Source: Leptospiraceae bacterium
GTDB taxonomy: Bacteria > Spirochaetota > Leptospiria > Leptospirales > Leptospiraceae
Reading direction: 5' to 3'
Length of the DNA stretch: 64,000 bases
NCBI GenBank assembly: GCA_024233835.1
Contig: JACKPC010000001.1
Location: 1,541,442-1,605,441 of the forward strand
Shown piece by piece: positions 5,049-19,804 of the stretch (position 1 is the stretch's first letter; every line of letters starts with the position of its first letter). Both the position numbers and the translations under genes were made by a program. A model generated the notes under the pieces. The model was not told where the DNA came from. It ran no database searches and saw only the letters and a program-made list of their open reading frames with translations.

Positions 5049-5804
5049 TTAATAATAAACCGCGTCATCTCCCCTAAGATCTAAAAGACCTACCTTGTTT
5101 TTCTTCTTTTCAAAGTAAGCCAAAGAGGAATATAACTTCCTCACCTGTTTCCGATTTAGAGTATCTCCCATAAGAACTTTCATCCTCATAGGTCGATAGA
5201 TAAAGATACTGATCTCTCCATCGGAACCGAGAACAACTTCCGAAATCCTATCCATAAGAACAGGAAATTGTCCAAAATTTTCCCAGACAGTTTCCGCAAA
5301 ATCCCGGAATTTCGTGTCCTTGTTGTTTTTCGGATTAAAGCTAAAGTCACCACTGAGAATGATTACGGAGGTATCTACAACGAAGTTTGAGGAAATGATA
5401 TTGAAATCCTCATCTATCTCGTAGAGGTTGTCTCCTGTATTTACAATAAACCTGGCATCTCTCTCAATAATTGAGAGCAGAAGCCTGGTTCCCGATCTCT
5501 GCACCAACCTTGCATCCTTTATCCGGGGATGCTCTTTTACCCGTTCTTCTATTTCATCCAGGTTATAATCCTTAATGGATAGACCCTGTTTTAAGTCTAA
5601 TAAATGAATAATCTCTTCTTTACTTAACTTCTTATGTCCCGTAATCAGGATTTTCTCCACAGAATCTCGCGATTTAATCCTGTCTCCCATGGCCAGATCG
5701 TAAATGAAATAGATGCAGGAAGCAGCTATAAACAAAATTACGTTGACCTTGAGAAAATTCCAATTTTTCCCCGGAGGCTTAATTTCTAATTCAGGACTTT
5801 CCAT
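5049..5804 (-). CDS. ftsQ: FtsQ/DivIB-like cell division protein
   Basis: 251 aa with a short cytoplasmic N-terminus, one TM and a POTRA-like region. Its position directly upstream of ftsA-ftsZ supports the call. Confidence 0.6.
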   Translation of the reverse strand: MESPELEIKPPGKNWNFLKVNVILFIAASCIYFIYDLAMGDRIKSRDSVEKILITGHKKLSKEEIIHLLDLKQGLSIKDYNLDEIEERVKEHPRIKDARLVQRSGTRLLLSIIERDARFIVNTGDNLYEIDEDFNIISSNFVVDTSVIILSGDFSFNPKNNKDTKFRDFAETVWENFGQFPVLMDRISEVVLGSDGEISIFIYRPMRMKVLMGDTLNRKQVRKLYSSLAYFEKKKNKVGLLDLRGDDAVYY

Positions 5805-5974
5805 CTCAGGGAATTATATCTCTTTAGTAATTGATTATCCATAATGTCAATAGAGAAAAAATGTACAACCATTATATTTATCGGAAACAGGTTTTTTTTA
5901 AAATAAATTTTTTTATGAACAAAAAAAAAGATTCTGTCTCATTAGATTTCTGGCGAAAGAACAGGAGTGAAGAT

Positions 5975-6049
5975 GGGTGAACGACGGGATTTGAACCCGC
6001 GACCACCAGAGCCACAATCTGGTGCTCTACCAACTGAGCTACGCCCACC
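5975..6049 (-). tRNA. tRNA-His (anticodon GTG)
   Basis: Reverse complement folds as a cloverleaf with extra 5' G(-1) pairing to C73, which is typical of tRNA-His. Anticodon loop TTGTGGC, T-loop GGTTCAAATCC. Confidence 0.85.
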
Positions 6050-6058
6050 ATATATCTA

Positions 6059-6132
6059 TGACCCGGAAGGGATTCGAACCCCTGACCATCTGCTTAGAAG
6101 GCAGATGCTCTATCCAGCTGAGCTACCGGGTC
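6059..6132 (-). tRNA. tRNA-Arg (anticodon TCT)
   Basis: Acceptor GACCCGG/CCGGGTC, D-arm GCTCAGCTGGATAGAGC, anticodon loop CTTCTAA, T-loop GGTTCGAATCC. Confidence 0.85.
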
Positions 6133-6139
6133 AAATGGA

Positions 6140-6211
<72 letters not shown>

Positions 6212-6264
6212 CAATCCGTAAATGCTAATATTTTAGACTCTCTTTTTCTGTCAATAGATATTGT

Positions 6265-6513
6265 CTAAAAAGGTTTTCCTTCCTTAAGTAGCTTTTTCTT
6301 AATTCTTAATTCACCATTAATCATTGACTGCAAACCGCTCCCTGAAGAGATGAAGGGAATACTATTGTTATTTTTAAAATGCGTATGATTCTTGCACTCC
6401 GCAAGCAGATGTAGTTCTTTGAGTTCTCCATTGATGAGAGCTTCTTTCGTTCCAGCCCTGTATTTGTTTTTCTCGATAAAAAGCATCACATTCCTCAAAG
6501 TAAACCAGTTCAA
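6265..6513 (-). CDS. hypothetical small protein (82 aa) at island edge
   Basis: ORF only. No recognisable motif. Confidence 0.3.
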   Translation of the reverse strand: MNWFTLRNVMLFIEKNKYRAGTKEALINGELKELHLLAECKNHTHFKNNNSIPFISSGSGLQSMINGELRIKKKLLKEGKPF

Positions 6514-6562
6514 GCGGAAGCCTGGCTTCGGCTCATTTCACTCTCTCAGCCGTCGCAGTTAA

Positions 6563-6964
6563 TCAAGAGAGGAGCCTATCAGTATCTTCCTCAATATCTT
6601 TATTTTCTTCTATCATCCCTTCTAAAATACTGGCGGATGTAGTTGTATTGCGTTCTATTGACTTAACAATTTCTTCCAACTTATTCAGCTTATCTAATAT
6701 ATCTCTCGAATTTCTTTGGCTATCCAATGCTATAGAACAAAGATTAAATACCATGTGATATAAATTCTCAAATAATTCTTCTGTTAGTGATGAGCATTCA
6801 CTATCTTCTAATTCATATTCTAAATAGGAAATTTTATCAATTCTATTTTCAATATCAGCAAGAATAGAAGAATTATAGTATCCTAACTCTCTCATTTCTT
6901 TTACTTGAGAACTCAAGATATTTATTCTTTCCCTGTAATCTATTTCTTCGTAGTAATTATCCAT
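6563..6964 (-). CDS. hypothetical acidic coiled-coil protein (133 aa), downstream of the ATPase/subtilase pair
   Basis: ORF, same strand, about 96 bp after the subtilase stop. AT-rich, like the rest of the island. Confidence 0.4.
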   Translation of the reverse strand: MDNYYEEIDYRERINILSSQVKEMRELGYYNSSILADIENRIDKISYLEYELEDSECSSLTEELFENLYHMVFNLCSIALDSQRNSRDILDKLNKLEEIVKSIERNTTTSASILEGMIEENKDIEEDTDRLLS

Positions 6965-7060
6965 TGTTTGTATTTAAAAAAGTATTTTTAATATACCCCG
7001 CATTCAGTACTATTACAAAATATTTAAACGAGTAGTAATTCAATTTTGTTTAAAACTTTT

Positions 7061-9370
7061 TCAAGTAATATTCTGTATTCTTTCTTGAATTAAATTTGAA
7101 ATTCTATTGTAAAGATCATAATTTAAAGCTTCCTTATCTTTTATGATAATTGATAATACATAATTCTCATATTCATTTGTAATATCTTTTGCCCAAGGAA
7201 AGTCATTTCTTGTAACTACAACATAATATTTAGAGAAATCTTTAAAACTCATAAACGACCAAGTAGAAGATTGAATAGTTCCTTTACCTCTTAATTTTGA
7301 AGAGATATTACGATTATTATTTACTTCTGGAATGTTCTTATATTCATCTTTTGGAGTCGATTTATCAAACATTGTGCTTATTTCTTCTAAATTATTACCT
7401 CTTACTAATTTAAAGAACATTCTAACTGCACGATATTTGACGCGAGTATTTTTAACTGGAGAAAAGTAAGATAAAGTAATTGTAATTTCTCTCTTTCTTT
7501 GTCCTGAGAAAAATTCATCTGGTAAAGGAAGCTCAAAAAAATGGTTTTTATTATTTTCAATACTTTCTATCGCATAAAGAACTATAACATCATTTCCAGA
7601 TTTATATAAAAAATCTTCATTTACTTTTCCATATCCTACCATTTTAATCTTTTTCTCATCTTCAATGCTATCAGAAAAAACTATATTATCATGCTCCGCC
7701 ATTCCTACCAATAAAGCTCTTATTAATAATATATTTTCGATTTGACTTTGTACCAGTAACTTTCCTGCCAAATTAGTAATATATGGTGTAGAAAAACTTG
7801 TTCCACAGTTTTCTGAAAATATTTTTCCATCCAAAAAAGAAGAATTTAGTGATAATTCACCAAGTCCATGTTTGTGAATCAAACTAGTTCTATAATCAAA
7901 TGCTAAATTTCCACCATAAGCTACTAATTCTGGTTTTATACTTTCAGCAATACCGAAACCAATTCGAGAAAAAGGTGAGAGAGAATTTCTTGGTGCAATC
8001 GGTTGGTAAGAAGGATCATTAGGATATTTTATAGAAGATCTCGTTTGATCATATCTTGCGATACTTCCAACTGTAAGGGAATTTATTGAGTTTGAAGGTT
8101 CCAGAATATTATGGCCATTAAAAAAATATTCTGGATAATCATATCCGTTAAGAATTTCATCTTTTATAATGCTGGAGTCAATATTTCCGGTAGATATAAT
8201 AAATAATACTCCAAGTTCATGAGCAAGATTATCTAATATCATAGATAAAGAACTCGGTTTACCTCCTTTATAAGGTCTTTTGGAATCTCCTATCGATAAA
8301 TTAAATATTTTACAATTATATTCATTATGAAGTTCTCTTACTGCAAATTCGATTTGGTTTTCTATAAATTCAGGATGATATGCACTCTCTCGATCCAACA
8401 CCCTTCCACTAATTATCCAAAAATCTGGAATAAAACTATTATTTTCTAAATTAGCAGCAACATCCCCATACAAAGCAATTCCGGCAACAGATGTACCATG
8501 GCCACTTTCATCTTCAGAGGCTAATCCTTTTATATATGACTTTGTATCTCCAATAGAAGGTGATAATAATGGATGTCCTGAAGAAATACCACTATCCAAA
8601 ATAGCAATTCTGGGAGCTTTATCATCTGGAGCAACTGGTTGTGCTATGTTTTCAATATCAAAATTTAATAGAGAATACTTTAGGGTAAAATTTGGAGGTA
8701 CGTCAATAGTACGTACATCTCGATATTTAAATAATTCTTTATAATTAAAATGATTGCATTTGGCACGTAAGATTGTAAGAAATTTTTTAGAAATTTGATC
8801 TAAGATTTGAATATTATTTTTAGAAACAAAATTTTTAAATGCAAAAATCATTTGTTCTCTATGATAATTATTTTCTGTTGGCCATAATTCTATATCTAAC
8901 AAAAAGTCTTCAGTATCGGGTAAGCCTTCTCTTTTTAATACTTCGCCTTTTCTATCTTCTTCTGTCCATAGTTTAAATTCCCTTGATGCTTCAATCAATT
9001 CTTTTCGAGTAACTTTTCCTGTTGAAGCAAAAGTAGATAAACGCTTTTCAAATTCCTCCAAGGCATTTTCAGAAGCAAATAAAAGAACAATTTCATTACT
9101 TTCTTGGCTTACAATTGTTATACCTTCTATTGACTCAAAACCTGTCGGATCAAAACTTTCCATAGTTTTTAATTTTAATAATAGTCTATCATCAAAACCG
9201 GATATTTCTTCTGATTTTCTTATTATCTTAATAAGTTCTAATTCATCTTTTAATTTTTGTGCATGTGCACTTTTATCCCCGGTAAATTTTTTAGGATTAA
9301 AAGGTTTTCCTCTTCGCTCGTTAATTACTGTTTCTCTTTGGAATTGAATATGTTCGTAAATTTCAGGCAT
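7061..9370 (-). CDS. cytoplasmic S8 family subtilisin-like serine peptidase (IetS-like)
   Basis: Catalytic triad motifs in order D (AILDSGIS), H (GHGTSVAGIA), S (GTSFSTPYI). No signal peptide. About 240-aa N-terminal extension. Start overlaps the upstream ATPase stop (TAATG). Confidence 0.8.
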   Translation of the reverse strand: MPEIYEHIQFQRETVINERRGKPFNPKKFTGDKSAHAQKLKDELELIKIIRKSEEISGFDDRLLLKLKTMESFDPTGFESIEGITIVSQESNEIVLLFASENALEEFEKRLSTFASTGKVTRKELIEASREFKLWTEEDRKGEVLKREGLPDTEDFLLDIELWPTENNYHREQMIFAFKNFVSKNNIQILDQISKKFLTILRAKCNHFNYKELFKYRDVRTIDVPPNFTLKYSLLNFDIENIAQPVAPDDKAPRIAILDSGISSGHPLLSPSIGDTKSYIKGLASEDESGHGTSVAGIALYGDVAANLENNSFIPDFWIISGRVLDRESAYHPEFIENQIEFAVRELHNEYNCKIFNLSIGDSKRPYKGGKPSSLSMILDNLAHELGVLFIISTGNIDSSIIKDEILNGYDYPEYFFNGHNILEPSNSINSLTVGSIARYDQTRSSIKYPNDPSYQPIAPRNSLSPFSRIGFGIAESIKPELVAYGGNLAFDYRTSLIHKHGLGELSLNSSFLDGKIFSENCGTSFSTPYITNLAGKLLVQSQIENILLIRALLVGMAEHDNIVFSDSIEDEKKIKMVGYGKVNEDFLYKSGNDVIVLYAIESIENNKNHFFELPLPDEFFSGQRKREITITLSYFSPVKNTRVKYRAVRMFFKLVRGNNLEEISTMFDKSTPKDEYKNIPEVNNNRNISSKLRGKGTIQSSTWSFMSFKDFSKYYVVVTRNDFPWAKDITNEYENYVLSIIIKDKEALNYDLYNRISNLIQERIQNIT

Positions 9371-10365
9371 TATTTGTTTTCTCTTAATATATTTTGTCTT
9401 GATTCTTCTCGTAGATATGAAGTTTCTATATATCTATCTTCCAAAAATTCTTTTCCTTGCATTATCATTTCCTTAATTGCTCTACGAAGAATTCTTTCTA
9501 TATCAGCATGTGATAATCCCTTAAACTTCTGCGATAACTCATTTATATCTGTACGTAAATTTCTTCTGACACCCCTTAGTTTTAATTCAATCAGTTTTTT
9601 TATTTGTTCTTTATTAGGATAGCTGAAATTTAAAACTTCTTCAAATCTTCTCCATACTGCACTATCTAATGTTTTTTCATGATTGGTAGCGGCAATTAAT
9701 ATGCTATTTCCACGATAACTATCTAACATTTGCAATAAAGCATTGACTACTCGCTTTATTTCTCCATGCTCTGAATTATCGGCTCTTTCTCTACCCAGAG
9801 CATCAAATTCATCAAATAGTACTACCATATTTGTTTTATTGATGAAGTCAAAAACCTTTCTAAGATTTGCCGAGGTTTCTCCAAGATAGGATGAAACGAT
9901 TGAGTCTATTCTAATGATTGCCAAAGGTAATTCTAACTCGAATGCTATGACTTCTGCTGAAATTGTCTTGCCACAACCCGGTGGGCCATAAAATAATATT
10001 TTGTCTACCGGTTTCAAACCATGTAGTTTTAAAATCTCTCCTCGATTATGCTCCAATAAAATTTCTTCCATAATTGACTTGTTTTCATCAGAAAGAATAA
10101 TCTCATCTATTGAGCGGGTAGGGGTAATTATATGGATTAATGGTAAACCTTTTTCTTTATCATTCGGAATTTCAAGATTCAATATTTGAAAAGAATTTTT
10201 TTCTGGTTCTTTTCCATATAAAATTCTTTCTAAATCATTTGCTAATAAGTGATGCTTTTTAGCTCTTTCCTCATTGATTATTTCCTCTGCAACCTGTTTG
10301 AATGAGTCTTTATCTCCAGAAGTGCCAAATTGAATCATCTTGCGTAAAAGTTTTGAACTGGCCAT
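9370..10365 (-). CDS. AAA+ ATPase (IetA-like)
   Basis: Walker A GPPGCGKT, Walker B VVLFDEFD, second region of homology, arginine finger region (AATNHEKTLDSAVWRRF). Translationally coupled to the subtilase. Confidence 0.8.
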   Translation of the reverse strand: MASSKLLRKMIQFGTSGDKDSFKQVAEEIINEERAKKHHLLANDLERILYGKEPEKNSFQILNLEIPNDKEKGLPLIHIITPTRSIDEIILSDENKSIMEEILLEHNRGEILKLHGLKPVDKILFYGPPGCGKTISAEVIAFELELPLAIIRIDSIVSSYLGETSANLRKVFDFINKTNMVVLFDEFDALGRERADNSEHGEIKRVVNALLQMLDSYRGNSILIAATNHEKTLDSAVWRRFEEVLNFSYPNKEQIKKLIELKLRGVRRNLRTDINELSQKFKGLSHADIERILRRAIKEMIMQGKEFLEDRYIETSYLREESRQNILRENK

Positions 10366-10425
10366 TGTTATACCTTATCACCTATTATTTATATAGTATG
10401 TTAAAATCATCAAGTAAAAAAAAAC

Positions 10426-13400
10426 TCACAGCCTATCATACTCTTCCAAAACACCCAGCTTTACTTCATCCTTAACCAGTGGGAATGTGCTGAGAATGTA
10501 TTCCAACTCTTCTCTTGTTAGTTTGTAAATCTTTGCAACCATAGCATCAATCTGGTTTTTCAAAGCCTGTCGTTCTTTTTCGACTTTCACACCATGAACC
10601 TCATGAGGCTTCTTACTGCCTTTCCCTTTCAAACCCACTTCTTCCAAAAGCTCGTCAAATTCTTCTGTAGTTCCCACAAGCTTCGCAGCTCTTTCGACTA
10701 ATTTAGAAAAGTAAGGATGGTCTTTATCCGACTGAAACCGCGGAATGGGAAGAGATAATAAGTAAAAAACATTTAATGTAGCTGATACTTTAAGTCTAAT
10801 TGTATAGTCTAAGATATAGCTATTCATTATGGATGAAAAAAATAACTGCTGAGAATTAGAAATGTTAGATTTTTCTATATTAATAGTAGCACAATTTACT
10901 TCTGATAACGATTTTTTAGGAATTATACTCGAAATTAAAGTTCGTTCATTAGTATTTGAAGCTATTCTTCTGTGCCCCCATCTATAATAATTGTAGTTAT
11001 AATGACTGACTTTTTCTAACATTTTATTATCTACCCAAAATTTTGGCTTATCATAATTTGAATCGTATTGCCAAATCATTTTACCTTCAAAAAGTGGAAT
11101 TCCATTTTTATTCTTATTAAATAAATAAGAGTTATTTGTAATATGTGATTCAGAAATAAGTTTCACATTCCATGTTCCTTCGATTTCTTCTCCCAATAGT
11201 GGATACTCTGCATATATTTTTTCTGTAATGTCGGATTCTTTCTTGGAGGAAAACTCCATGAGTGATAATGAATCGGGAGAAAATTTCTTTAGTGTTTCGA
11301 GGTTTACACTAACGTATTTTCCTTTCCTGTTATGTGCTTGCATCATTTCGTTTTCTGTTAGCATCATAAAGGCAGCGGGAACGTCTTTGGTTCCTTCTTT
11401 GGTTTTGATGGTGTTATAAGCAACAAATTTAAATCTACTATCTACATCCTCAAACATCTTCTTTCGATTTTCAAAGCCATATAAGAACTGAACTTTAGAT
11501 TCTGCAAAGAATAACTCTCGTAATTCCTTACAGCCAAGGTCTGTATAAAACCCCGATGGCATTACAATTCCAAGACTTCCTTTTGTTTTTAATAAGTAAA
11601 ACGCTCTTTCTAAGAAAAGTTTGTAGAGGTTTATATCTCCCTTGCCTCTCGCCGGATAGTCTTCACAACTTCTAAAGTATTCCGACACAGAGGAAAGGCC
11701 CATGCTGTATTCCATCCAGAGTTTCTTCAGCTTAGTATCTTTCTTGAGTGTTTCCTCTACTTTTTTCTTGGCCTGAATTTTATCCAATTTACGATAACCA
11801 TCTAAGTGCTTTTCAAAGAACTCCTGTGAATTGGGTTTCCAGGTTTCCCAGGGAGGGTTGAGTAGCATAATATCGAACCCGCCCTTGTTCATGATTTCCG
11901 AAAATTCCATCACCCAGTGAAAAGCATTCAAGTCTTCTGCCTGTATCTTGAATTCCTTAAATTGTTTTATAGCTGAAGTATCTTTCTTCAAGTCTATAAA
12001 ATCAATTTTATTCTTGGGCTTTACTTTCCATACACCTGAAATCTTGGTATTAAAATCCTTATGAAAAAGTTGTTTTAATGCACCTGTTTTCTGGTGAATT
12101 TCATCTCTTTTCTTGAGAGCAGCCTTTGGATTCTCCACTGAAAAGTAAGCCTTTATTAAATCTTCTCTCTCTTCAAAGGACTTTCGAATATCATAAAAAT
12201 CAAATAGTCTTTCGGTCTGTTGTTTCTTAGCTCCCGGAAATAATCCCTGTTGCTCTGCTTTACCCGTATTTTCAAAAGGAGAAGAAGTAAAACCGACAAG
12301 AGAATTCCCGCAGACAACATGAAAATCAATATTCGGAAGCGGTTCTTCTACCTTATCGGTAATACCCTCTATCATTGCAATAAACAGACGAAGTTTGGCA
12401 ATCTCGACTGCTTCCGGAAGAAGGTCTACTCCATAAATATTTTTACTGACTATAAATCTTCGAATTGTATAGATAGATGGAGAAGGGCTATCCATATCCT
12501 TCTTGTATTCTTTTTTCAGTGATTCCAGATTATTCGTCTTAACTACTTCGAGTAAGTTTAAATGTAATTCCGAAAGTTCATGCAAAGCTTCAATCAAGAA
12601 TTGACCGGAACCGCAGGCCGGGTCACATACGGTTATATTCGATAGCTTTTCATAATAAGCAAGGAGGTCTTTTTCAGAAGCCGAAGAAAGAAACTCCGAT
12701 ACTTTTATACACTTTATTTTTAGATTATTCTGAATAAAATATAAAAGAAAATTTTCAATTGTTTCCCTGGAAAGAAAGGAACTCAAGAAAGGTGGAGTAT
12801 AATACACACCCTGAGACTTGTTTTCACCCAGTGATTTTTCAAAAATATAACCTAAAATATAAGGGTCAATTACATCTTCATCGGTATCAGAACGTTCACT
12901 CGAATACCATAACCAGCTTTCTAAAAATGCAAAGATTTCCTGAAAGGCTTTATTGGGAATAGAAATGTCGGGATGTTTTTGTTCCAATTCATGCGTTAAA
13001 AAAAGTCCTCCATTGAGATAAGGAATTAACTCACCGGTTTCTTGAATCCAGGAAGCATCCCTATCTTCCAATTTGACACAGAGTGTTTCTAAGAAAAATC
13101 GTTTTAAAAAATTCTCATAGAAGTTACTTTTCTTGTTCTCATATTCCGCAAGCTTGCGGACCAGATACCTTTCATCTTTTTCTAAAAGATGTTTCTTCTG
13201 GAGAAAATACAGAAAGATAATTCTATCCAATAAGACCTGTGCATATAATCTCTTATCATCCGGATCTGCTACTCCTTGGATTTGTTTTACAAGCTGTAGT
13301 CTTTTTTTGGAATAGTCTGTATAAAATCTTTTGGAAACATCTTTTCTATCGAATAGGTCATCAAAGGTTTCAATCTGCTCGTATTTTAATTTAGAAACCC

Positions 13401-13749
13401 TTTGAATCCCTATTGGGTTTTCTCTATTTCTGATTTCTTCTTTTTTTATTGTATAACGAACAATTTTTGATTTTCCTTCATAACCTATTTTAACAAAAGT
13501 CATAGAAGAAAAATCTTGCGGAACGGCTAAAACACAATAGCGATTATATGTAAAGGAATTGATACGTTTGTTTATTTCAGATTTTTCCTCATAGAAGAAT
13601 ATTTCAATAAATTCGTCTTCTGCAATATTAAAAATGAATGCTCCATCATTTTCTCTGACCTGAAAACCCAAAAAAGAAAAATAGTTATACACATCATCTA
13701 TGGATTGAATTTCTAAAAACTTGCTCTTAAGCTGTTCTACCTTGGACAT
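10426..13749 (-). CDS. large gamma-class N6-adenine DNA methyltransferase, Type IIG R-M / PglX-like (1107 aa)
   Basis: Motif X GVYYTPP, motif I DPACGSGQFL, motif IV NPPW, in that order. Long N-terminal extension with a possible D...E-E-K nuclease-like segment, and a C-terminal TRD-sized region. Confidence 0.75.
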   Translation of the reverse strand: MSKVEQLKSKFLEIQSIDDVYNYFSFLGFQVRENDGAFIFNIAEDEFIEIFFYEEKSEINKRINSFTYNRYCVLAVPQDFSSMTFVKIGYEGKSKIVRYTIKKEEIRNRENPIGIQRVSKLKYEQIETFDDLFDRKDVSKRFYTDYSKKRLQLVKQIQGVADPDDKRLYAQVLLDRIIFLYFLQKKHLLEKDERYLVRKLAEYENKKSNFYENFLKRFFLETLCVKLEDRDASWIQETGELIPYLNGGLFLTHELEQKHPDISIPNKAFQEIFAFLESWLWYSSERSDTDEDVIDPYILGYIFEKSLGENKSQGVYYTPPFLSSFLSRETIENFLLYFIQNNLKIKCIKVSEFLSSASEKDLLAYYEKLSNITVCDPACGSGQFLIEALHELSELHLNLLEVVKTNNLESLKKEYKKDMDSPSPSIYTIRRFIVSKNIYGVDLLPEAVEIAKLRLFIAMIEGITDKVEEPLPNIDFHVVCGNSLVGFTSSPFENTGKAEQQGLFPGAKKQQTERLFDFYDIRKSFEEREDLIKAYFSVENPKAALKKRDEIHQKTGALKQLFHKDFNTKISGVWKVKPKNKIDFIDLKKDTSAIKQFKEFKIQAEDLNAFHWVMEFSEIMNKGGFDIMLLNPPWETWKPNSQEFFEKHLDGYRKLDKIQAKKKVEETLKKDTKLKKLWMEYSMGLSSVSEYFRSCEDYPARGKGDINLYKLFLERAFYLLKTKGSLGIVMPSGFYTDLGCKELRELFFAESKVQFLYGFENRKKMFEDVDSRFKFVAYNTIKTKEGTKDVPAAFMMLTENEMMQAHNRKGKYVSVNLETLKKFSPDSLSLMEFSSKKESDITEKIYAEYPLLGEEIEGTWNVKLISESHITNNSYLFNKNKNGIPLFEGKMIWQYDSNYDKPKFWVDNKMLEKVSHYNYNYYRWGHRRIASNTNERTLISSIIPKKSLSEVNCATINIEKSNISNSQQLFFSSIMNSYILDYTIRLKVSATLNVFYLLSLPIPRFQSDKDHPYFSKLVERAAKLVGTTEEFDELLEEVGLKGKGSKKPHEVHGVKVEKERQALKNQIDAMVAKIYKLTREELEYILSTFPLVKDEVKLGVLEEYDRL

Positions 13750-13796
13750 TACATTACCTCTGGGTTTATGACCATATTTATATATATCTTACGTTT

Positions 13797-13833
13797 ACAC
13801 TTCTATAAACTCTTTGATGCTGAGTTCTTTTCC
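13797..13833. repeat. copy 1 of an ~37-bp repeat corresponding to the 3' coding end of ORF 19048-19509 (…KELSIKEFIE-stop)
   Basis: ACTTCTATAAACTCTTTGATGCTGAGTTCTTTTCC is near-identical to 19050-19086 and 18146-18182. Confidence 0.7.
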
Positions 13834-13836
13834 TAT

Positions 13837-14190
13837 TTATAAAAGAAGAGAGTTTAAGATTTCTTTAATCTGGTTTTCTAAAACTGGAATATCATCTGTT
13901 ATGATATTCCAAACAACCTGATAATCAATACCAAAGTACTCATGAGTTATGATATTTCGAACACCGACAATACTTCTCCAATCAATATTATTGTATTCTA
14001 TTCTCATTTTATCTGAAATTCTTGCAGCTGCTTCTCCGATATCCTGTAAAGCTTTTGCACAAGCATATTTTGTTTTTAAATCATTCAGAAAATCTTGCTT
14101 ACTCAGTCCTTTTACAAATATTTGTATAACTTTAGTATTATCTAAAATATGTTTTAGCCTATCTATATCTGAAAGTTTTTCATTTCTCAT
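13837..14190 (-). CDS. hepT: HepT-like (DUF86/HEPN) toxin
   Basis: Conserved Rx4HxY motif (RNIITHEY). About 117 aa. Overlaps the upstream MntA gene. Confidence 0.8.
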   Translation of the reverse strand: MRNEKLSDIDRLKHILDNTKVIQIFVKGLSKQDFLNDLKTKYACAKALQDIGEAAARISDKMRIEYNNIDWRSIVGVRNIITHEYFGIDYQVVWNIITDDIPVLENQIKEILNSLLL

Positions 14191-14491
14191 ATATTAGAAT
14201 CTTATCCTTTTCTATTCTATTAGCAAAATCAAGTGTTTCATTATGATTGTCGTATAATGCACCGCTGGAAATGACATCTACTTCTATGGGAAACATTTCT
14301 TTAATATCCAAAATCATTCTTGAAAACAAAAGCCCCACTTTTTGCTCAGGTTCTAATTCTAAAAGTATATCCAGATCACTTTCATGATCCATTTCATTTC
14401 TTGCATAAGAACCGAATAAATAAACTTTTTTTATAGGTTTATCTGCTGCATAAGCAAACATTTTCTCTTTTACATCTTCTATAGAAATCAT
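14180..14491 (-). CDS. mntA: MntA-like minimal nucleotidyltransferase antitoxin
   Basis: GSYARNE...DSDLDILL (GS-x-n-DxD) Pol-beta NTase motif. 103 aa. 11-nt overlap with hepT. Confidence 0.8.
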   Translation of the reverse strand: MISIEDVKEKMFAYAADKPIKKVYLFGSYARNEMDHESDLDILLELEPEQKVGLLFSRMILDIKEMFPIEVDVISSGALYDNHNETLDFANRIEKDKILIYEK

Positions 14492-14520
14492 ATATATCTC
14501 TTTTTTATATTCTATCCTTT

Positions 14521-17500
14521 CTATATATAAATACTTAATACTAACTGGCTATGAATTTCCGAACTTTTGTAAAGACTTCCTCTCATACTGGAATCCTCTA
14601 AAATCACTTCATTATAGAATGTAAATAGAGCGGAAGCAAAATCATTAAAAGCGACTTTAGGAACCTGTTTAATGTTAATATTATATTTATTTAAAGTATC
14701 TTTTAATTTATTTGCTTTATCCGAAGAAAGCTGAGTCGTTCCCAGTATTTGCATCATTTCTTTAAAAACAATCTCTGCATCTTCTCGAATTGTTTTAGCA
14801 AACTCAAAAAAGTTCTCTTCCACGAAAAGAGCTTTTTGTTTTTTTAAACCCTGCAAAGTCTGTATAAGTTGAACCTGAATCCCCTTCACGGAACTCACTT
14901 TTTGAGAAACCTTATGAGGATCGGCTTCTTTAAGTCTTTCAATAAAGATTTCTTTAAATGCAAGATTTATCTCTTCTTCTGCCTTTTCCACCCATTCTTT
15001 ATTTTCCACTTCCACACGTGTAAAACCCTCTGACTGAAGATTAGCCTTTTCAAAGAACTCTTCCGGAAAAGCATATTCTACATTTTCATTTCCTTTTTTA
15101 CATAAGAATACACGGGAAAGAAGGTCTCTATTCTGATTCCGTTCTCCATAGATTTCATATAATTTATAGATGGTGTTAGGATTTTTATTGGTAATAGTAT
15201 AATATTCAGCTTTCTTTTTAGGAACACCCTTAAAATCAGAACTCCTGAGATGATTTTCTTTAGCTGCAACGAATAGCTTCGCTCTAAAGAAATCTTCTTC
15301 CGTTTCTCCTTCTATACCGGAAAAAAGAGAATTACTTTTACTGTTTATTTCATATTCACTTACGGAATTGGCATTATAATTCTTTTTAAGTTGTTCACCT
15401 ATAATCTGTGGATTGATCTCTTCTTCATCGGAACTTAAAATAGCCATTTCTTTTCCTAAAAGAGTATTTACCTGGCTTATTTTAGCACTTAAGATTTCGA
15501 GTAACTTTAAAAAACGCTCTAAAATTTTATCAGGTGTAAAATTAAAAACCTTAATTTTATTTTCAGAACCAATACGATTGATTCTACCCACTCTCTGTAC
15601 AATTTTCATTGGATTCCAGGGAAGGTCAAAATTGATAAGTAAATCTGCATCCTGTAAGTTTACACCTTCAGCTAAAACGTCGGTAGAAATTAAGAGATTT
15701 AATTCTTCACTTTCTGTTATATTTTCTACTTTTCTGGCTCTGGGTGCAAACTTATCTAAAACTTTAGATATTCTACCCGAAGTTCTATCATCACCACTTA
15801 CAGTATCAAATAATAAATCGATTTTATTATCTTCACAGGCTTGTTGAATATGATATTTAATATATTCTAAAGTATCCTTATAGGAACAAAAGCAAAGAGC
15901 CTTAATAAAATGAGAACGGTTTAATCTATCTAAGAAAATTTCTATCTTGGGCTCTTTAAGGCTTAGTGGTTCATCAGGTTTTTCTCGTAAAGGTATAATG
16001 TAAGATTCTATAAAATCATTTATTGTTTTTATATCAGTTTCACACCATTTTATAACGGTTTCTTTATCAATTAAATCCTCTTTTCCATCTTTTATATCTT
16101 CTGAATAATCCTCTAATTCCGGTTCTTCCTCTAATTTTTTCTGATTATATTTTTCAATAACTTCATTCCAGTCCTCAGAATCTATTTCGGAGCGAAGAGT
16201 TGTAATTTTTGCTTTGATGTTTTCAAGGGAACAGTAGAAAGAGTAAACACTGGATTCGATTCTTTTGAACAAAAGAAGCTTATACAAATAAGAAAGTGTT
16301 TCCCCATTGGAATTACCGGAAAGGCGTATATGGGGTAAAAATAAACTATCGAGGAATGAGTTTATATTTTCAAATATTGCTTCAAAGCCTCCTGTAAATT
16401 CGTATTCTATTTTATAAACAGTTGGTTCCTGAAACTCTAAAGGTTTACCTCCTACTTTTACATTCTTATATTTTTCTTTTATGGAAGACCTCATCCGAAG
16501 AAGCATCACAGAGTTTAAAATATCAATAATTCTTTTTTTAGCTCGCTCATAATCTGGATTATTTTCTAACTCACGAATACTGATTCCTTTACGAAGATTT
16601 TTAATTAGTTCTGAAAAAACTTGAAAACTGGATGGGTATAGACCTGCATTTGTAAGAGAAGCTTCTACTGTTGAAAGTTTTACCAGGTTTAATAAGTCGC
16701 TTACAGAGTTATTGAAAGGAGTTGCTGTTAATAACAAAACATCTGATCGAGAAGAATAAGGATGCAGTAGACTGATATGCTGATATAGCCTTGTATCTTT
16801 ATTTCTGGCTCTGTGAGCTTCATCTACTACAATTAGGTCAAATTTCTTTTTTCGTAATTTACTTTCTATGGCAGAAGGAAGCATTTGGCTTAACTTCCCC
16901 TGTGAAAGAAAAACTAAATCGGATGAAGCATCTATAGAAAAATATTTTGAAAGAGTTTCTTTCCACTGATGAAGAACAGTAGGAGGGGTTAGTATTAAAA
17001 CTTTTTTTCCTCTTTTATAGTATCTATAAATGACTTCGGAAGCTGTAAATGTTTTTCCGAGTCCTACAGAGTCAGAAACAATGGCTCCTCCAAATCGTTC
17101 TATTTTGTTTAAAATATTCTCAGCACCAATTCGTTGAAACTCAGCTAATTGATCAGTTCCTTGAAGTTCTTCTTCCTCCATCTTTCCAATAAAGTAATAA
17201 ACCATATACACAAGCATCTGAAAAGGAGTAAGGAATATATCTTCCCTTTTTTGAGTATGCTGTTTTTCTCTCAGGATTCCTTTTACAATCTGGAGTAATT
17301 CCGGACGAAAATCTATTCCTTCAGATTCCCATAGCTCATCAAACCATATTTTTAATTCGTTATATACCGGTATATCTGAAGAAGTTAGATTTAGCTCACT
17401 GTTTTCAGTAAGTCCACTTTTCGAAAAATTAGAAGAACCAACAATTGTTCTTACTTGTTCTATATTTCCCGGTAATACTGTTCGAGCAAGATAAAGCTTT

Positions 17501-17907
17501 GCATGAAAAAATCGATTTAACATCAACCGAATATGGATTTTATCATTTTCCAGCAGTTCAATAATTTTGAGTAGCTTTTCCTTTTCTAAACCGGAAACCT
17601 CAGTCTCAATATTTTGAATAATTTCTCTTTTTAATTCTGAATCAGTTTTTGGAATTTTAAATGCTGTTTCCAAAACCTTTGCAGTTGTATAATCCGTTCT
17701 TGGGCTTATCAGGAACTTAATCTGAACATCGTTTTTTTGGAAAAACTCATTATTTTCCAGACTATCCATAACCAGTTCAAATCCACTCAGATAGAAATAT
17801 CCTACGGCAATTCTCATTTCCCTGATATAAGGGAAAATTATGTGATTAATTACCCTATCAAACTGCCTATTTTCATCTCGGTTATCTATGAAAGCTGGAA
17901 ATTGCAT
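14521..17907 (-). CDS. PLD-family nuclease fused to SNF2/SF2 helicase (1128 aa); SauUSI / DISARM-DrmD+DrmC-like architecture
   Basis: N-terminal HxK(x)4D(x)6GSxN phospholipase-D motif (HAKLYLARTV…GSSNFSKSG). Then helicase motif I (GLGKT), DEAH box (IVVDEAHRARN), motif III (LLLTATP) and helicase-C motifs (QRVGRINRIG). Confidence 0.8.
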   Translation of the reverse strand: MQFPAFIDNRDENRQFDRVINHIIFPYIREMRIAVGYFYLSGFELVMDSLENNEFFQKNDVQIKFLISPRTDYTTAKVLETAFKIPKTDSELKREIIQNIETEVSGLEKEKLLKIIELLENDKIHIRLMLNRFFHAKLYLARTVLPGNIEQVRTIVGSSNFSKSGLTENSELNLTSSDIPVYNELKIWFDELWESEGIDFRPELLQIVKGILREKQHTQKREDIFLTPFQMLVYMVYYFIGKMEEEELQGTDQLAEFQRIGAENILNKIERFGGAIVSDSVGLGKTFTASEVIYRYYKRGKKVLILTPPTVLHQWKETLSKYFSIDASSDLVFLSQGKLSQMLPSAIESKLRKKKFDLIVVDEAHRARNKDTRLYQHISLLHPYSSRSDVLLLTATPFNNSVSDLLNLVKLSTVEASLTNAGLYPSSFQVFSELIKNLRKGISIRELENNPDYERAKKRIIDILNSVMLLRMRSSIKEKYKNVKVGGKPLEFQEPTVYKIEYEFTGGFEAIFENINSFLDSLFLPHIRLSGNSNGETLSYLYKLLLFKRIESSVYSFYCSLENIKAKITTLRSEIDSEDWNEVIEKYNQKKLEEEPELEDYSEDIKDGKEDLIDKETVIKWCETDIKTINDFIESYIIPLREKPDEPLSLKEPKIEIFLDRLNRSHFIKALCFCSYKDTLEYIKYHIQQACEDNKIDLLFDTVSGDDRTSGRISKVLDKFAPRARKVENITESEELNLLISTDVLAEGVNLQDADLLINFDLPWNPMKIVQRVGRINRIGSENKIKVFNFTPDKILERFLKLLEILSAKISQVNTLLGKEMAILSSDEEEINPQIIGEQLKKNYNANSVSEYEINSKSNSLFSGIEGETEEDFFRAKLFVAAKENHLRSSDFKGVPKKKAEYYTITNKNPNTIYKLYEIYGERNQNRDLLSRVFLCKKGNENVEYAFPEEFFEKANLQSEGFTRVEVENKEWVEKAEEEINLAFKEIFIERLKEADPHKVSQKVSSVKGIQVQLIQTLQGLKKQKALFVEENFFEFAKTIREDAEIVFKEMMQILGTTQLSSDKANKLKDTLNKYNINIKQVPKVAFNDFASALFTFYNEVILEDSSMRGSLYKSSEIHSQLVLSIYI

Positions 17908-17967
17908 GGTTCGTTCACCTTATACCGAAAGTCGATAGGAATTAAAGTAAAAATCCTTCCCCCTCTA

Positions 17968-18115
17968 ATTTTTCAGAATAATCTACAATTTTAGTTTATG
18001 AATTAAGAAAGACAAGAATTTTACAGTCATAAATGGGAAAAAGTCATGAAATTGGGTTTTAATGCAAACTTCCCACAAACATCCACAGTTTTCGGTTTGT
18101 ATTTCAGTGTTATCG
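17968..18115. repeat. copy A of a ~150-bp repeat homologous to the region upstream of ORF 19048-19509 (19521-19665)
   Basis: Roughly 85% identity over about 150 bp, judged by eye alignment (TTTTTCAGAATAATCTACAA…AAACATCCACAGTTTTCG…). Sits immediately upstream of the PLD-SNF2 gene start. Confidence 0.7.
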
Positions 18116-18145
18116 AGAGAAAGGAAAGCTTTTAACTGGTTTTTA

Positions 18146-18243
18146 TACTTCTATAAATTCTTTGATACTGAGTTCTTTTCCTTTTTTCAGAATAATCTAC
18201 AAATTTAGTTTAGGAATTTAAAAAGACAAGAGTTTCTGTAATG
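18146..18243. repeat. junction: copy 2 of the 37-bp gene-3'-end repeat directly abutting a truncated (~60 bp) copy of the upstream-region repeat
   Basis: TACTTCTATAAATTCTTTGATACTGAGTTCTTTTCC followed by TTTTTTCAGAATAATCTACAAATTTAGTTTAGGAATTTAAAAAGACAAGAGTTT. Confidence 0.7.
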
Positions 18244-18514
18244 GATCTTCTTCTACTTCAATACTTTCTTCATATAATACAGCAGGATCTAAGTCGATGC
18301 AGTTATAAGGATCAAAAGTACCGCTTACATCCCAGGCCAGAGTATTATTCATTACTGTACATTTTTCAAAAAAAAACGACTCATCCTGTAATTTACAAAA
18401 AACTCCCTTATCTATAAGATGACTGATGTCATAGAGTTTAATCTTACCATCATCAAAATATAGGTATACTTTATGATTTTCAGTTGGGAAAACTTGAACT
18501 ATTTTAGGTATCAT
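18218..18514 (-). CDS. DUF2442-family protein
   Basis: 98 aa. Pattern V-x-F-DG…L…FDP…DLDP…LY typical of DUF2442. Adjacent to a DUF4160 gene. Confidence 0.6.
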   Translation of the reverse strand: MIPKIVQVFPTENHKVYLYFDDGKIKLYDISHLIDKGVFCKLQDESFFFEKCTVMNNTLAWDVSGTFDPYNCIDLDPAVLYEESIEVEEDPLQKLLSF

Positions 18515-18593
18515 TAAAATTCTCCAGTATCAAATCGGGTCAATTTTTTTTATTTCTCCATGCTGCATGGCTGATTCCCAGTTTTCTAATAAC

Positions 18594-18776
18594 TCATTCT
18601 GACCAGGCTAAAACTAACTTTAATTGCCTGGAAGGAAGAGCACCCTTTATAATTACAGAGTTATTTATATCAACGATAGCCTGTAAGTCTCCATATTCTG
18701 CATGGAAATGGGGTGGCATGTGATCATTCCAATACATGTATATTTTAATACCAAAAAATTCCGAAACAAGTGGCAT
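18594..18776 (-). CDS. DUF4160-family protein
   Basis: 60 aa. MP…FFGIKIYMYWNDHMPPHFHAEYG matches the DUF4160 hallmark (…H-PPHFH…). Commonly paired with DUF2442. Confidence 0.65.
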   Translation of the reverse strand: MPLVSEFFGIKIYMYWNDHMPPHFHAEYGDLQAIVDINNSVIIKGALPSRQLKLVLAWSE

Positions 18777-18788
18777 ATTCTATCCTTT

Positions 18789-19043
18789 CTATATATAAAA
18801 ACTAAAGACTTCCAGTCTTCCTTTTATCTTTGTTAGAATTACTTCAGCAATATATCTGCACCACCCAACCGCGCGGTTTAAAAGATCGACTTGATGATTG
18901 GCTCGTGTTGAAGAACCATCTGCTTTTAGTGGCTTCCCGCAAATTCCGTACTTATAGATGTCTTTCTTTTCATTATCTATAATTTGATAAAGATGATGTT
19001 CTTCTTCACTATCATGTGAATTACCATGAACTTTTTTTGCCAT
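18789..19043 (-). CDS. hypothetical protein (84 aa)
   Basis: ORF only. Weak GIY-YIG-like YQII…IYKYGI segment, not enough for a call. Confidence 0.35.
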   Translation of the reverse strand: MAKKVHGNSHDSEEEHHLYQIIDNEKKDIYKYGICGKPLKADGSSTRANHQVDLLNRAVGWCRYIAEVILTKIKGRLEVFSFYI

Positions 19044-19047
19044 CTTC

Positions 19048-19509: not shown

Positions 19510-19520
19510 TTCCTTACTCC

Positions 19521-19665
19521 TTTTTTCAGAATAATCTACAAATTTAGTTTAGGATTTTAAAAAGACAAGAGTTTTACAGTCATAAATGTGAAAAAATTAT
19601 GAAATAGGGACTTTATACATATTTCGGATAAACATCCACAGTTTTCGTTCCGCATTTCACTGATA
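19521..19665. repeat. copy B (upstream region of ORF 19048-19509) of the ~150-bp repeat
   Basis: Homologous to 17968-18115 and partially to 18183-18243. Confidence 0.7.
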
Positions 19666-19688
19666 TACAACCCCTATATAAGCGATAT

Positions 19689-19804
19689 ACAGTCCATATC
19701 ATAGTAATGAAACAGTCCGTATCATAGTAATAGAACAGTTCGTATTATAGTAATGAAACGGTTCGTATTATAGTAATGAAACGGTCTGTATCATAGTAAT
19801 AATA
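19689..19804. repeat. tandem array, 5 copies of a 23-24-bp unit (consensus ACAGTYCGTATCATAGTAATGAA) plus a degenerate sixth
   Basis: Seen directly: units at 19689-19711, 19712-19735, 19736-19758, 19759-19781, 19782-19804. Confidence 0.8.

What the first reader, a model, noticed from the sequence alone, without database searches (positions are those of the whole stretch)
7061..10365. IetAS-like AAA+ ATPase / cytoplasmic S8 subtilase pair, with a possible third small gene
A 331-aa classical AAA+ ATPase (GPPGCGKT, DEFD) is translationally coupled (TAATG) to a 769-aa subtilase. The subtilase has an intact Asp/His/Ser triad, no signal peptide and an about 240-aa N-terminal extension. This ATPase-then-protease arrangement matches the two-gene ietAS antiphage module described from E. 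coli defense islands (established knowledge; assignment here rests on architecture only). A 133-aa acidic coiled-coil ORF (6563-6964) follows on the same strand and is not part of the canonical pair. It could be an accessory or regulatory component.
Basis: partly seen in the sequence, partly recalled or inferred. Interest (0 to 1): 0.6.

Follow-up and report, generated by a model that had tools for sequence, protein, structure and literature searches.

The report
IetAS antiphage pair in restriction operon
This is a genuine but ordinary member of the known IetA/IetS (AAA+ ATPase plus cytoplasmic subtilase) antiphage toxin-antitoxin family; the proposed third small gene does not belong to it, and the pair sits at the end of a helicase-methyltransferase restriction-like operon, an arrangement that recurs widely in relatives.

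Summary
On the minus strand a 331-aa AAA+ ATPase (9370-10365) overlaps, through TAATG, a 769-aa S8 subtilase (7061-9370). The subtilase has no signal peptide.

PADLOC IetA matches at E=5.7e-103 and IetS at E=1.7e-215, both nearly full length. The pair is a divergent subfamily: it scores below NCBI's cut-offs for the E. coli IteA/IteS equivalogs.

The 133-aa ORF is not a third component. It is absent from 80 related loci, and its only two relatives lie in non-IetAS contexts.

New context:
- The pair ends a same-strand block made of a PLD-SNF2 helicase, an MNT/HepT insertion, a PglX/type IIG-like methyltransferase, IetA and IetS. The block lies in a low-GC island beside three tRNA genes.
- In about 45 of 81 loci (the 80 relatives plus this window) the pair lies in a same-strand block with type I, type III, DISARM, BREX or SNF2-methyltransferase genes. 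It is often nested between their subunits at operonic spacing.
- The helicase-methyltransferase module usually occurs without IetAS (0 of 80 loci).

Verdict: a new member of a known kind, of modest interest. The exception is the testable idea that IetAS acts as an accessory or guard module of DNA-modification defences.

The parts
9370..10365 (-). ietA: 331-aa classical-clade AAA+ ATPase, the presumed antitoxin or regulator
   Evidence: PADLOC IetA E=5.7e-103. Pfam AAA E=9.9e-32. NCBIfam IteA E=9.1e-79, below the equivalog cut-off. Walker A, the pore loop S-S-[Y/F/L]-L-G-E-T, Walker B DEFD, sensor-1 TN and W-R-R are invariant or nearly so in 79 sequences.
7061..9370 (-). ietS: 769-aa cytoplasmic S8 subtilase, the presumed toxin or effector. 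Its start codon overlaps the ietA stop (TAATG).
   Evidence: PADLOC IetS E=1.7e-215 over the full length. Triad D259/H291/S525 is invariant. No signal peptide. Junction sequence.
8636..9370 (-). IetS N-terminal extension (residues 1-245): two ferredoxin-like alpha/beta units resembling subtilase prodomains
7697..8620 (-). IetS catalytic S8 domain (residues 251-558)
   Evidence: Pfam PF00082 E=9.7e-35. The nearest solved relatives by sequence are Tk-SP-type subtilases.
7064..7615 (-). IetS C-terminal beta-jelly-roll domain (residues 586-769)
10426..13749 (-). Context: 1107-aa PglX/type IIG-like N6-adenine DNA methyltransferase, 60 nt upstream of ietA on the same strand
   Evidence: PADLOC REase_MTase_IIG E=9.5e-64, with DrmMI and PglX hits. 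Pfam Eco57I and MmeI_Mtase. A homologous methyltransferase lies directly upstream of ietA in L002, L010, L035 and L039, and one gene further upstream in L062.
14521..17907 (-). Context: 1128-aa PLD(HKD)-SNF2 helicase fusion (DrmD-like), first gene of the same-strand block
   Evidence: PADLOC 'HKD+Snf2' E=9.4e-73 and DrmD E=1e-33. Pfam PLDc_2, SNF2-rel_dom and Helicase_C. It pairs with the methyltransferase family in 54 of 80 metagenome loci.
13837..14491 (-). Context: MNT (14180-14491) and HepT (13837-14190) toxin-antitoxin cassette inserted between the helicase and methyltransferase genes
   Evidence: Pfam NTP_transf_2 and HepT-like. The flanking repeats recur at other small cassettes. In L010 the helicase and methyltransferase genes overlap by 4 nt with no cassette between them.
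6563..6964 (-). Adjacent 133-aa acidic ORF. It is a real gene but not part of IetAS.
   Evidence: Absent from 80 IetAS loci. It belongs to a near-orphan family of three clusters. Its relative in L087 sits 19 nt upstream of a probable PHP-like plus P-loop ATPase gene (PHP assignment by eye; Pfam gives only a sub-threshold AAA_23 hit), with no IetS nearby; the other relative's contig is too short to judge.
5975..6211 (-). tRNA-His, tRNA-Arg and tRNA-Pro cluster bordering the low-GC island
   Evidence: ARAGORN. G+C drops from about 0.38-0.44 to about 0.27-0.33 across 6500-19500.

Best explanation
Window 7061-10365 encodes a bona fide IetA-IetS pair. This is a toxin-antitoxin-like antiphage module, probably of the abortive-infection type.

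Inferred working model: IetS is a cytoplasmic subtilase built like Tk-SP or KP-43-type subtilases. It has prodomain-like N-terminal units, an S8 core and a C-terminal beta-jelly roll, plus one extra N-terminal unit. Its proteolysis of cytoplasmic host or phage proteins is the effector activity. IetA is a classical AAA+ ATPase with an intact substrate-engaging pore loop. It keeps the protease harmless by ATP-dependent remodelling or sequestration, until a phage cue releases or redirects it.

Context: in this genome the pair forms the last two genes of a same-strand block. The block begins with a PLD-SNF2 helicase and a PglX/type IIG-like methyltransferase, inside a low-GC defence island in a Leptospiraceae MAG. 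IetAS is an add-on to that otherwise independent restriction-like module. The 133-aa ORF downstream is unrelated.

Shown here: family membership, motif integrity, cytoplasmic location, domain folds, gene order and its recurrence. Taken from the literature: toxin/antitoxin roles and antiphage activity. Inferred: how the ATPase restrains the protease, and what the trigger is.
For: - Full-length PADLOC IetA and IetS matches and NCBIfam IteA/IteS as best names.
- IetA lies immediately upstream of IetS on the same strand in 79 of 79 informative related loci, across many phyla.
- The catalytic triad is invariant.
- Walker A/B, the aromatic pore loop and the Arg fingers are conserved in 79 IetA sequences.
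- There is no signal peptide.
- The N-terminal model matches subtilase prodomains and the C-terminal model matches subtilase jelly-roll domains.
- Literature (PMC13069673): IetS is the toxin and IetA the antitoxin. Protease activity is required for defence, ietA mutants could not be constructed, and the mechanism is otherwise unknown.
- Homologues are common on conjugative plasmids, including 52 Agrobacterium records. They occur standalone on a Pseudomonas plasmid.
- The methyltransferase-helicase module occurs without IetAS in 80 of 80 methyltransferase-selected metagenome loci. IetAS is therefore an optional addition.
Against: - The pair scores well below NCBI's equivalog cut-offs for the experimentally tested E. 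coli proteins (265 against 510 bits; 158 against 900 bits). Activity is extrapolated across a large distance.
- No experiment exists for this subfamily.
- The ferredoxin-like N-terminal fold is generic. S6 and ACT domains score about as well as prodomains.
- The intact pore loop would equally fit an unfoldase that feeds or activates the protease rather than restraining it.
- The tight nesting of relatives inside restriction operons suggests the pair may not act autonomously.
Confidence: 0.6

Rival explanations
1. IetAS here is not autonomous. It is one functional part of a composite four-component system: PLD-SNF2 helicase, methyltransferase, IetA and IetS. This would be analogous to the recently described ietHAS, in which a DrmD-like SNF2 helicase is essential for defence and for keeping IetS non-toxic. 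The helicase-methyltransferase module would sense or process unmodified DNA. Alternatively it is itself guarded: phage inhibition of it triggers the protease, as with PrrC and the EcoprrI type I system.
For: - The same gene order (PLD-SNF2, methyltransferase, IetA, IetS) forms a tight operon in an Acidobacteriota MAG. In L010 the gaps are -4, 16 and 4 nt. It also occurs in L035.
- Relatives are nested at operonic or overlapping spacing in several system types: between HsdM and HsdS/HsdR (L030, L061, L045); between DrmMI and DrmA/DrmB (L048, L054, L076); between PglX and PglZ of a BREX-1 operon (L062); and between SNF2-DUF4391 or UvrD and type III Mod-Res (10 loci).
- IetS clades track their context.
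- Published work shows ietH (SNF2) is essential in ietHAS (PMC13069673). It also shows that RM III and ietAS co-localise non-randomly in E. coli (bioRxiv 10.1101/2022.08.21.504612).
Against: - About 34 of 81 loci show no such neighbour, and plasmid copies are standalone.
- Standalone E. coli IetAS is reported to defend on its own, as summarised.
- The helicase-methyltransferase module lacks IetAS in 80 of 80 loci.
- In this window the helicase is separated from ietA by a toxin-antitoxin cassette and the methyltransferase.
- A promoter-like site lies in the 60-nt gap before ietA, but such sites are no more frequent than in shuffled sequence.
- Defence genes cluster for reasons other than function.
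Confidence: 0.3
2. IetA and IetS form a two-part ATP-dependent protease. The AAA+ ring unfolds selected proteins and hands them to the subtilase. Its role in restriction operons would be regulatory: for example, degrading stalled or self-attacking restriction subunits, as ClpXP-dependent restriction alleviation does. It would not kill the cell.
For: - IetA keeps a canonical pore-loop-1 (aromatic in 72 of 79 sequences, followed by L-G) and its Arg fingers. These are typical of substrate-threading AAA+ unfoldases such as p97/Cdc48, PAN and FtsH, its nearest solved or named relatives.
- The two genes are translationally coupled.
- BREX-1 natively contains a Lon-like ATPase-protease, BrxL (L062).
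- Relatives are nested inside restriction operons.
Against: - Subtilases are not known to form gated chambers that dock onto AAA+ rings.
- Published genetics describe IetS as toxic without active IetA. That fits restraint better than substrate delivery.
- Standalone IetAS is reported to give phage defence.
- No interaction data exist.
Confidence: 0.1
3. The pair serves mainly as an addiction (post-segregational killing) module. It would stabilise the genomic island or the adjacent restriction genes and have no role in phage defence in this organism.
For: - IetAS was first described as a plasmid-stabilising toxin-antitoxin system on pTiC58 (cited in PMC13069673).
- Homologues are abundant on conjugative plasmids, with 305 of 438 matching records predicted conjugative.
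- The island also carries several other toxin-antitoxin cassettes: MNT/HepT, DUF4160/DUF2442 and Tox-URI2/DUF4240.
Against: - Stabilisation and abortive-infection defence are not mutually exclusive.
- The locus is chromosomal and has no integrase or mobility gene in the island.
- The consistent association with antiphage systems points to defence.
Confidence: 0.1
4. The genes are an ordinary housekeeping AAA protein and a secreted or nutritional subtilase that merely happen to be adjacent.
For: Generic AAA and S8 Pfam domains.
Against: - IetA- and IetS-specific profiles match at E=1e-103 and 1e-215.
- There is no signal peptide.
- The pairing is conserved in 79 of 79 informative loci from many phyla.
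- The genes lie in a low-GC defence island.
Confidence: 0.01

Closest known systems
IetAS (ietA/ietS): the pTiC58 plasmid-stabilising toxin-antitoxin pair, also the two-gene antiphage system from E. coli defence islands
   Same: It has the same two-gene order, with the AAA+ ATPase first and the S8 subtilase second. PADLOC IetA and IetS profiles match over the full length. The IetS N-terminal extension aligns with the NCBIfam IteS profile from position 5. The protease is cytoplasmic with an intact triad.
   Different: It is a divergent subfamily. Scores are about half (IteA) and under a fifth (IteS) of NCBI's equivalog cut-offs. The best database relative is only 58% identical. It is chromosomal in a Leptospiraceae MAG and appended to a helicase-methyltransferase operon rather than standalone.
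ietHAS (Liu-DS4; NAR 2026, PMC13069673): IetAS plus an essential DrmD-like SNF2 helicase, IetH
   Same: A DrmD-like SNF2 helicase is encoded upstream on the same strand. Relatives in L041, L050, L053, L059, L072, L075 and L079 have an SNF2 gene one or two genes before ietA.
   Different: Here the helicase carries an N-terminal PLD nuclease domain. It is separated from ietA by MNT/HepT and a 1107-aa methyltransferase. Its usual partner is the methyltransferase, not IetAS. ietHAS was reported only in Pseudomonadota. Whether this helicase influences IetAS is untested.
Class 1 DISARM (DrmD SNF2, DrmMI methyltransferase, DrmA, DrmB, DrmC PLD)
   Same: The neighbouring genes match DrmD and DrmMI profiles, and a PLD domain is present. 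IetAS relatives are nested between drmMI and drmA in true DISARM operons.
   Different: The window has no DrmA (DUF1998-partner helicase) and no DrmB. The PLD domain is fused to the helicase. The locus therefore fails the DISARM core definition.
PrrC anticodon nuclease embedded in the EcoprrI type I restriction operon (comparison from general knowledge)
   Same: In both, a latent toxic effector is encoded inside a restriction-modification operon. IetAS relatives sit between hsdM and hsdS/hsdR at spacings from -4 to 12 nt.
   Different: The effector is a protease gated by an AAA+ ATPase, not an ATPase-fused RNase. No evidence yet shows that restriction proteins mask IetS or that anti-restriction factors trigger it.
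Tk-SP, KP-43 and Csp-type subtilases (prodomain, S8 core, beta-jelly roll)
   Same: The domain layout and folds agree with those of the IetS N- and C-terminal regions.
   Different: Those enzymes are secreted or spore-associated and are not paired with an AAA+ ATPase. IetS has two N-terminal ferredoxin-like units and no signal peptide.

Membership tests
IetAS (PADLOC/DefenseFinder definition) | A protein matching an IetA (AAA+ ATPase) profile | tested here: met
   PDLC02196 E=5.7e-103, residues 2-324 against profile positions 2-325 of 374. Three further IetA models match at E<=2e-57.
IetAS (PADLOC/DefenseFinder definition) | A protein matching an IetS (S8 peptidase) profile | tested here: met
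   PDLC02198 E=1.7e-215, residues 5-767 against profile positions 4-785 of 795. Seven further IetS models also match.
IetAS (PADLOC/DefenseFinder definition) | The two genes are adjacent and co-oriented, with the ATPase first | tested here: met
   One-base overlap at TAATG. The same order holds in 79 of 79 informative related loci.
IetAS (NCBIfam equivalogs of the tested E. coli proteins) | Score above the curated equivalog cut-off for IteA (510 bits) and IteS (900 bits) | tested here: not met
   265.3 and 158.2 bits. These are the best-named families, but the pair is a distinct subfamily and not an equivalog.
IetAS | Catalytically competent protease and ATPase (triad; Walker A and B) | tested here: met
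   D259/H291/S525 and N396 are invariant. GPPGCGKT, DEFD, TN and WRR are invariant.
IetAS | IetS is toxic and IetA neutralises it; the pair protects against phage | not testable with these tools
   Known only from the literature for other members. Cloning and phage challenge are needed.
ietHAS | An SNF2 helicase gene in the same operon, required for IetAS function | tested here: inconclusive
   An SNF2 (DrmD-like) gene lies on the same strand 4.2 kb upstream, with three genes in between. Functional dependence cannot be tested here.
Class 1 DISARM (for the neighbouring genes) | The DrmA and DrmB core genes are present | tested here: not met
   No ORF of the island (6.3-19.5 kb) scanned with PADLOC gave DrmA as its best match or matched DrmB. 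The small ORFs at 18.2-19.5 kb, scanned with Pfam and NCBIfam only, are small toxin-antitoxin-like proteins. DrmA and DrmB are present in the true DISARM loci L054, L076 and L080.
Type IIG restriction-modification (for the 1107-aa neighbour) | A nuclease domain fused to the methyltransferase | tested here: inconclusive
   Type IIG profiles align only from about residue 132 onwards, and no nuclease Pfam domain is found in residues 1-350. The PLD domain on the helicase may supply cleavage.

The most novel reading that the evidence does not exclude
IetAS of this subfamily may not be a free-standing system. It could be a portable accessory effector that plugs into DNA-modification-based defences: type I, type III, type IIG, DISARM, BREX, and the PLD-SNF2 plus methyltransferase module seen here. 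It would be co-transcribed with them and act as a second line. The AAA+-gated protease would fire when the host restriction complex is inhibited or overwhelmed by phage (a PrrC-like guard), or when its helicase signals unmodified DNA. In that case the window's four genes, PLD-SNF2, methyltransferase, IetA and IetS, would form one undescribed composite system.
Probability: 0.3. Interest if true: 0.7.

Novelty: new member of a known kind. Interest (0 to 1): 0.35.

Why it matters
The locus itself adds one divergent spirochaete member to a family already catalogued by PADLOC and NCBI, so on its own it is ordinary.

The comparative result is more useful. More than half of the sampled relatives are co-oriented with restriction, DISARM or BREX genes, and many are nested between their subunits at operonic spacing. 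Clades of IetS also track their context.

The mechanism of IetAS is still unknown (PMC13069673). Published hints are limited to co-localisation with RM III in E. coli and to one helicase-dependent variant. A general link to DNA-modification defences would give a concrete hypothesis for its trigger, and natural four-gene operons such as L010 in which to test it.

Tried and rejected
1. The third gene. tblastn of the 133-aa ORF against 80 IetAS loci gave nothing. The word-indexed search found only the ORF itself. An exhaustive HMMER search found two remote relatives; one lies in a non-IetAS context and the other sits on an 826-base contig too short to judge. It was rejected as a component.

2. 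Promoter and terminator scans of 5800-19800 found no more sites than in shuffled sequence. They cannot define transcription units.

3. Solved structures. No IetA- or IetS-specific entry exists. Only generic p97, Cdc48 and NSF, and subtilisins, were found.

4. Island boundaries. Direct-repeat searches found no tRNA-derived att-like repeat and no integrase. They found cassette-flanking repeats instead.

5. A literature search combining subtilase, AAA, restriction-modification and defence island found no paper. A whole-word search for IetA or IetS was swamped by unrelated acronyms.

6. DISARM membership of the neighbours was rejected because DrmA and DrmB are absent.

7. The secreted or housekeeping reading was rejected.

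8. The local Pfam copy lacks PF27210 and PF27160, which are precomputed on homologues. Those domain names could not be read.
Full report
**Observation**

The minus strand carries three ORFs: 9370-10365 (331 aa), 7061-9370 (769 aa) and 6563-6964 (133 aa). The first two share one base in the sequence TAATG.

The 331-aa protein has GPPGCGKT and DEFD motifs and a Pfam AAA domain (E=9.9e-32). The 769-aa protein has a Pfam Peptidase_S8 domain at residues 251-558 (E=9.7e-35), preceded by about 250 residues with no Pfam match.

In an alignment of 26 homologues, D259, H291, S525 and the oxyanion N396 are invariant. The protease has no hydrophobic N-terminus or membrane segment. Its homologues likewise begin with hydrophilic sequences. 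The 133-aa ORF is strongly acidic.

**Identity**

PADLOC profiles give IetA at E=5.7e-103 (residues 2-324) and IetS at E=1.7e-215 (residues 5-767). In NCBIfam the best names are 'anti-phage ATPase IteA' (E=9.1e-79) and 'S8 family anti-phage peptidase IteS' (E=2.6e-46). PAN, CDC48 and FtsH models score about 50 orders of magnitude worse. Both IteA and IteS scores nevertheless fall well below NCBI's equivalog cut-offs (265 against 510 bits; 158 against 900 bits).

This is therefore a true member of the broad IetAS family, but in a subfamily distant from the E. coli pair that was tested experimentally. The closest protein in a 5.8-billion-sequence collection is 58% identical and comes from a Leptospirales MAG. 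The window itself comes from a Leptospiraceae MAG, as shown by the source name of the 133-aa protein. No solved structure of an IetA or IetS exists. The nearest solved ATPases are p97, Cdc48 and NSF, and the nearest proteases are Tk-SP-type subtilases.

**Conservation of the pair**

A scan of one genome per species returned 80 loci encoding IetS relatives, from Spirochaetota, Proteobacteria, Acidobacteriota, Chloroflexota, Bacillota and other phyla. IetA lies immediately upstream on the same strand in 79 of them. The remaining contig ends 150 nt before IetS.

Across 79 IetA sequences the following are invariant: Walker A, Walker B, sensor-1 TN, the W-R-R arginine-finger region, and the pore-loop-1 residues S-S-x-L-G-E-T. 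The x position is Y in 47, F in 25 and L in 7. IetA therefore looks like an active, substrate-engaging classical AAA+ machine.

**IetS domains**

**The third gene**

The 133-aa ORF has no counterpart in any of the 80 loci. A word-indexed search of 5.8 billion proteins found only the ORF itself. An exhaustive HMMER scan of 1.8 billion representatives found two relatives, at 46% and 32% identity.

No IetS could be found beside either relative. One lies 19 nt upstream of a gene that looks like a PHP-like plus P-loop ATPase and has no IetS on its 2.8-kb contig. The PHP assignment is by eye; Pfam gave only a weak, sub-threshold AAA_23 hit. The other lies on an 826-base contig whose cut upstream fragment matches nothing in the IetAS loci.

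The ORF is a real but nearly orphan gene. More likely it is a leftover of, or partner for, something else. It is not an IetAS component.

**Surroundings**

The pair lies in a low-GC stretch (about 0.27-0.33 against 0.38-0.44 in the flanks). This stretch sits between a cluster of tRNA-His, tRNA-Arg and tRNA-Pro genes and an MFS transporter gene.

Upstream on the same strand are, in order:
- a 1128-aa PLD-SNF2 helicase (PADLOC 'HKD+Snf2' E=9.4e-73, DrmD-like);
- an MNT/HepT toxin-antitoxin pair;
- a 1107-aa PglX/type IIG-like adenine methyltransferase, which ends 60 nt before ietA.

The toxin-antitoxin pair looks like a later insertion. In the Acidobacteriota locus L010 the corresponding helicase and methyltransferase genes overlap by 4 nt and are followed directly by ietA and ietS. 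In the window the cassette is bounded by repeats that recur beside other small cassettes at 18-19.7 kb.

**A recurrent pattern in relatives**

I clustered the neighbouring ORFs and annotated representatives with PADLOC and Pfam. The pair turns out to be nested, co-oriented and at operonic spacing inside several kinds of DNA-modification defence system:
- type I systems, as HsdM-IetAS-HsdS-HsdR, with 4-nt overlaps in L030 and L061;
- type III systems, as IetAS-Mod-Res, usually with an SNF2-DUF4391 or UvrD-like helicase in front (10 loci);
- class 1 DISARM, as DrmMI-IetAS-DrmA-DrmB (L048, L054, L076 and others);
- a BREX-1 operon, as BrxC-PglX-x-IetAS-PglZ-BrxL (L062);
- a type IIG enzyme (L036);
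- Dpd-type helicases and a DUF1156/DUF499 pair.

About 45 of 81 loci have such a neighbour on the same strand, and many of the rest are short contigs. A neighbour-joining tree of IetS shows clades that track these contexts. The same context also arises in separate clades. That tree is a rough distance tree only.

Conversely, 80 metagenome loci selected through the methyltransferase show an SNF2 helicase beside it in 54 cases and IetAS in none. The helicase-methyltransferase pair is therefore an independent, widespread module, and IetAS is an optional addition to it.

**What the literature says**

IetAS was first described as a plasmid-stabilising toxin-antitoxin pair, with the protease as toxin and the ATPase as antitoxin. 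It was later shown to be an antiphage system, and its mechanism is still unknown.

A 2026 paper describes ietHAS, in which a DrmD-like SNF2 helicase is essential for defence and helicase mutants are toxic (PMC13069673). Another study lists 'RM III and ietAS' among pairs that co-localise non-randomly in E. coli (bioRxiv 10.1101/2022.08.21.504612). Homologues are frequent on conjugative plasmids, including Agrobacterium plasmids, and can be standalone there.

**Interpretation**

The best-supported reading is a standard IetAS module: an AAA+ ATPase that restrains a cytoplasmic subtilase until infection. Here it is appended to a restriction-like helicase-methyltransferase operon.

The main rival, at about 0.3, is that it cooperates functionally with that operon, either in the manner of ietHAS or as a PrrC-like guard. 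Less likely readings are a two-part ATP-dependent protease with a regulatory role, or a pure addiction function. A housekeeping or secreted protease is excluded.

**Verdict**

The locus is a new, divergent member of a known kind. Its main value is as one example of a broad and only partly documented nesting of IetAS inside DNA-modification defence operons.

Noticed in passing
window 13794-14542, 17965-18235, 18775-18810, 19047-19100, 19518-19666: The small toxin-antitoxin-like cassettes are bounded by shared repeats of 36-145 nt. The cassettes are MNT/HepT at 13837-14491, DUF4160/DUF2442 at 18218-18776 and Tox-URI2/DUF4240 at 18789-19509. One repeat contains the 3' coding end of the DUF4240 gene ('...KELSIKEFIE'), and a copy lies just downstream of HepT. 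This suggests cassette shuffling by recombination and a secondary insertion of MNT/HepT into the helicase-methyltransferase operon.
   Followed up: partly
window 19689-19800: A tandem array of 4.9 copies of a 23-nt unit (ACAGTCCGTATCATAGTAATGAA, 87% matches). It lies at the far edge of the low-GC island, in the gap before the MFS transporter gene. Its function is unknown.
   Followed up: no
window 10426-17907; loci L089-L168: A PLD(HKD)-SNF2 helicase paired with a PglX/type IIG-like methyltransferase appears to be a widespread restriction-like module of two or more genes. SNF2 lies next to the methyltransferase in 54 of 80 metagenome loci, and at least 12 of those helicases include the PLD region. 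It lacks the DISARM core genes DrmA and DrmB. No nuclease domain was detected on the methyltransferase, so the PLD domain may provide cleavage.
   Followed up: partly
L062 309-17053: A Desulfocapsa MAG carries a BREX-1 operon (BrxC, PglX, PglZ, BrxL). A Hypoth_Ymh gene and the IetA-IetS pair are inserted between pglX and pglZ.
   Followed up: partly
L041, L050, L053 (e.g. L050 921-1580): A DUF4391 protein sits between the SNF2 helicase and ietA in loci where a type III Mod-Res pair follows. The published three-gene 'ietHAS' may therefore be part of a larger unit of helicase, DUF4391, IetAS and type III genes in some genomes.
   Followed up: no
window 6265-6513: An 82-aa ORF lies between the 133-aa ORF and the tRNA genes. 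Its sequence ('...YRAGTKEALINGELKEL') resembles, by eye only, the C-terminal end of small GIY-YIG (UPF0213-type) proteins. No profile hit was found, so it is probably a gene remnant.
   Followed up: no
L087 1137-2840: The closest relative of the 133-aa ORF (46% identity) lies 19 nt upstream of a large protein. That protein has what looks, by eye, like an N-terminal PHP-like motif (WDLHVHTP) and has a P-loop (GGRGTGKS), giving a defence-like ATPase; Pfam gives only a sub-threshold AAA_23 hit. The small acidic protein may normally partner such ATPases.
   Followed up: partly
L003 10001-12327: In the related Leptospirales MAG, IetS is split into 98-aa and 626-aa ORFs. This is a probable frameshift or pseudogene, and it lies downstream of a PDC-S49 candidate defence gene.
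   Followed up: no
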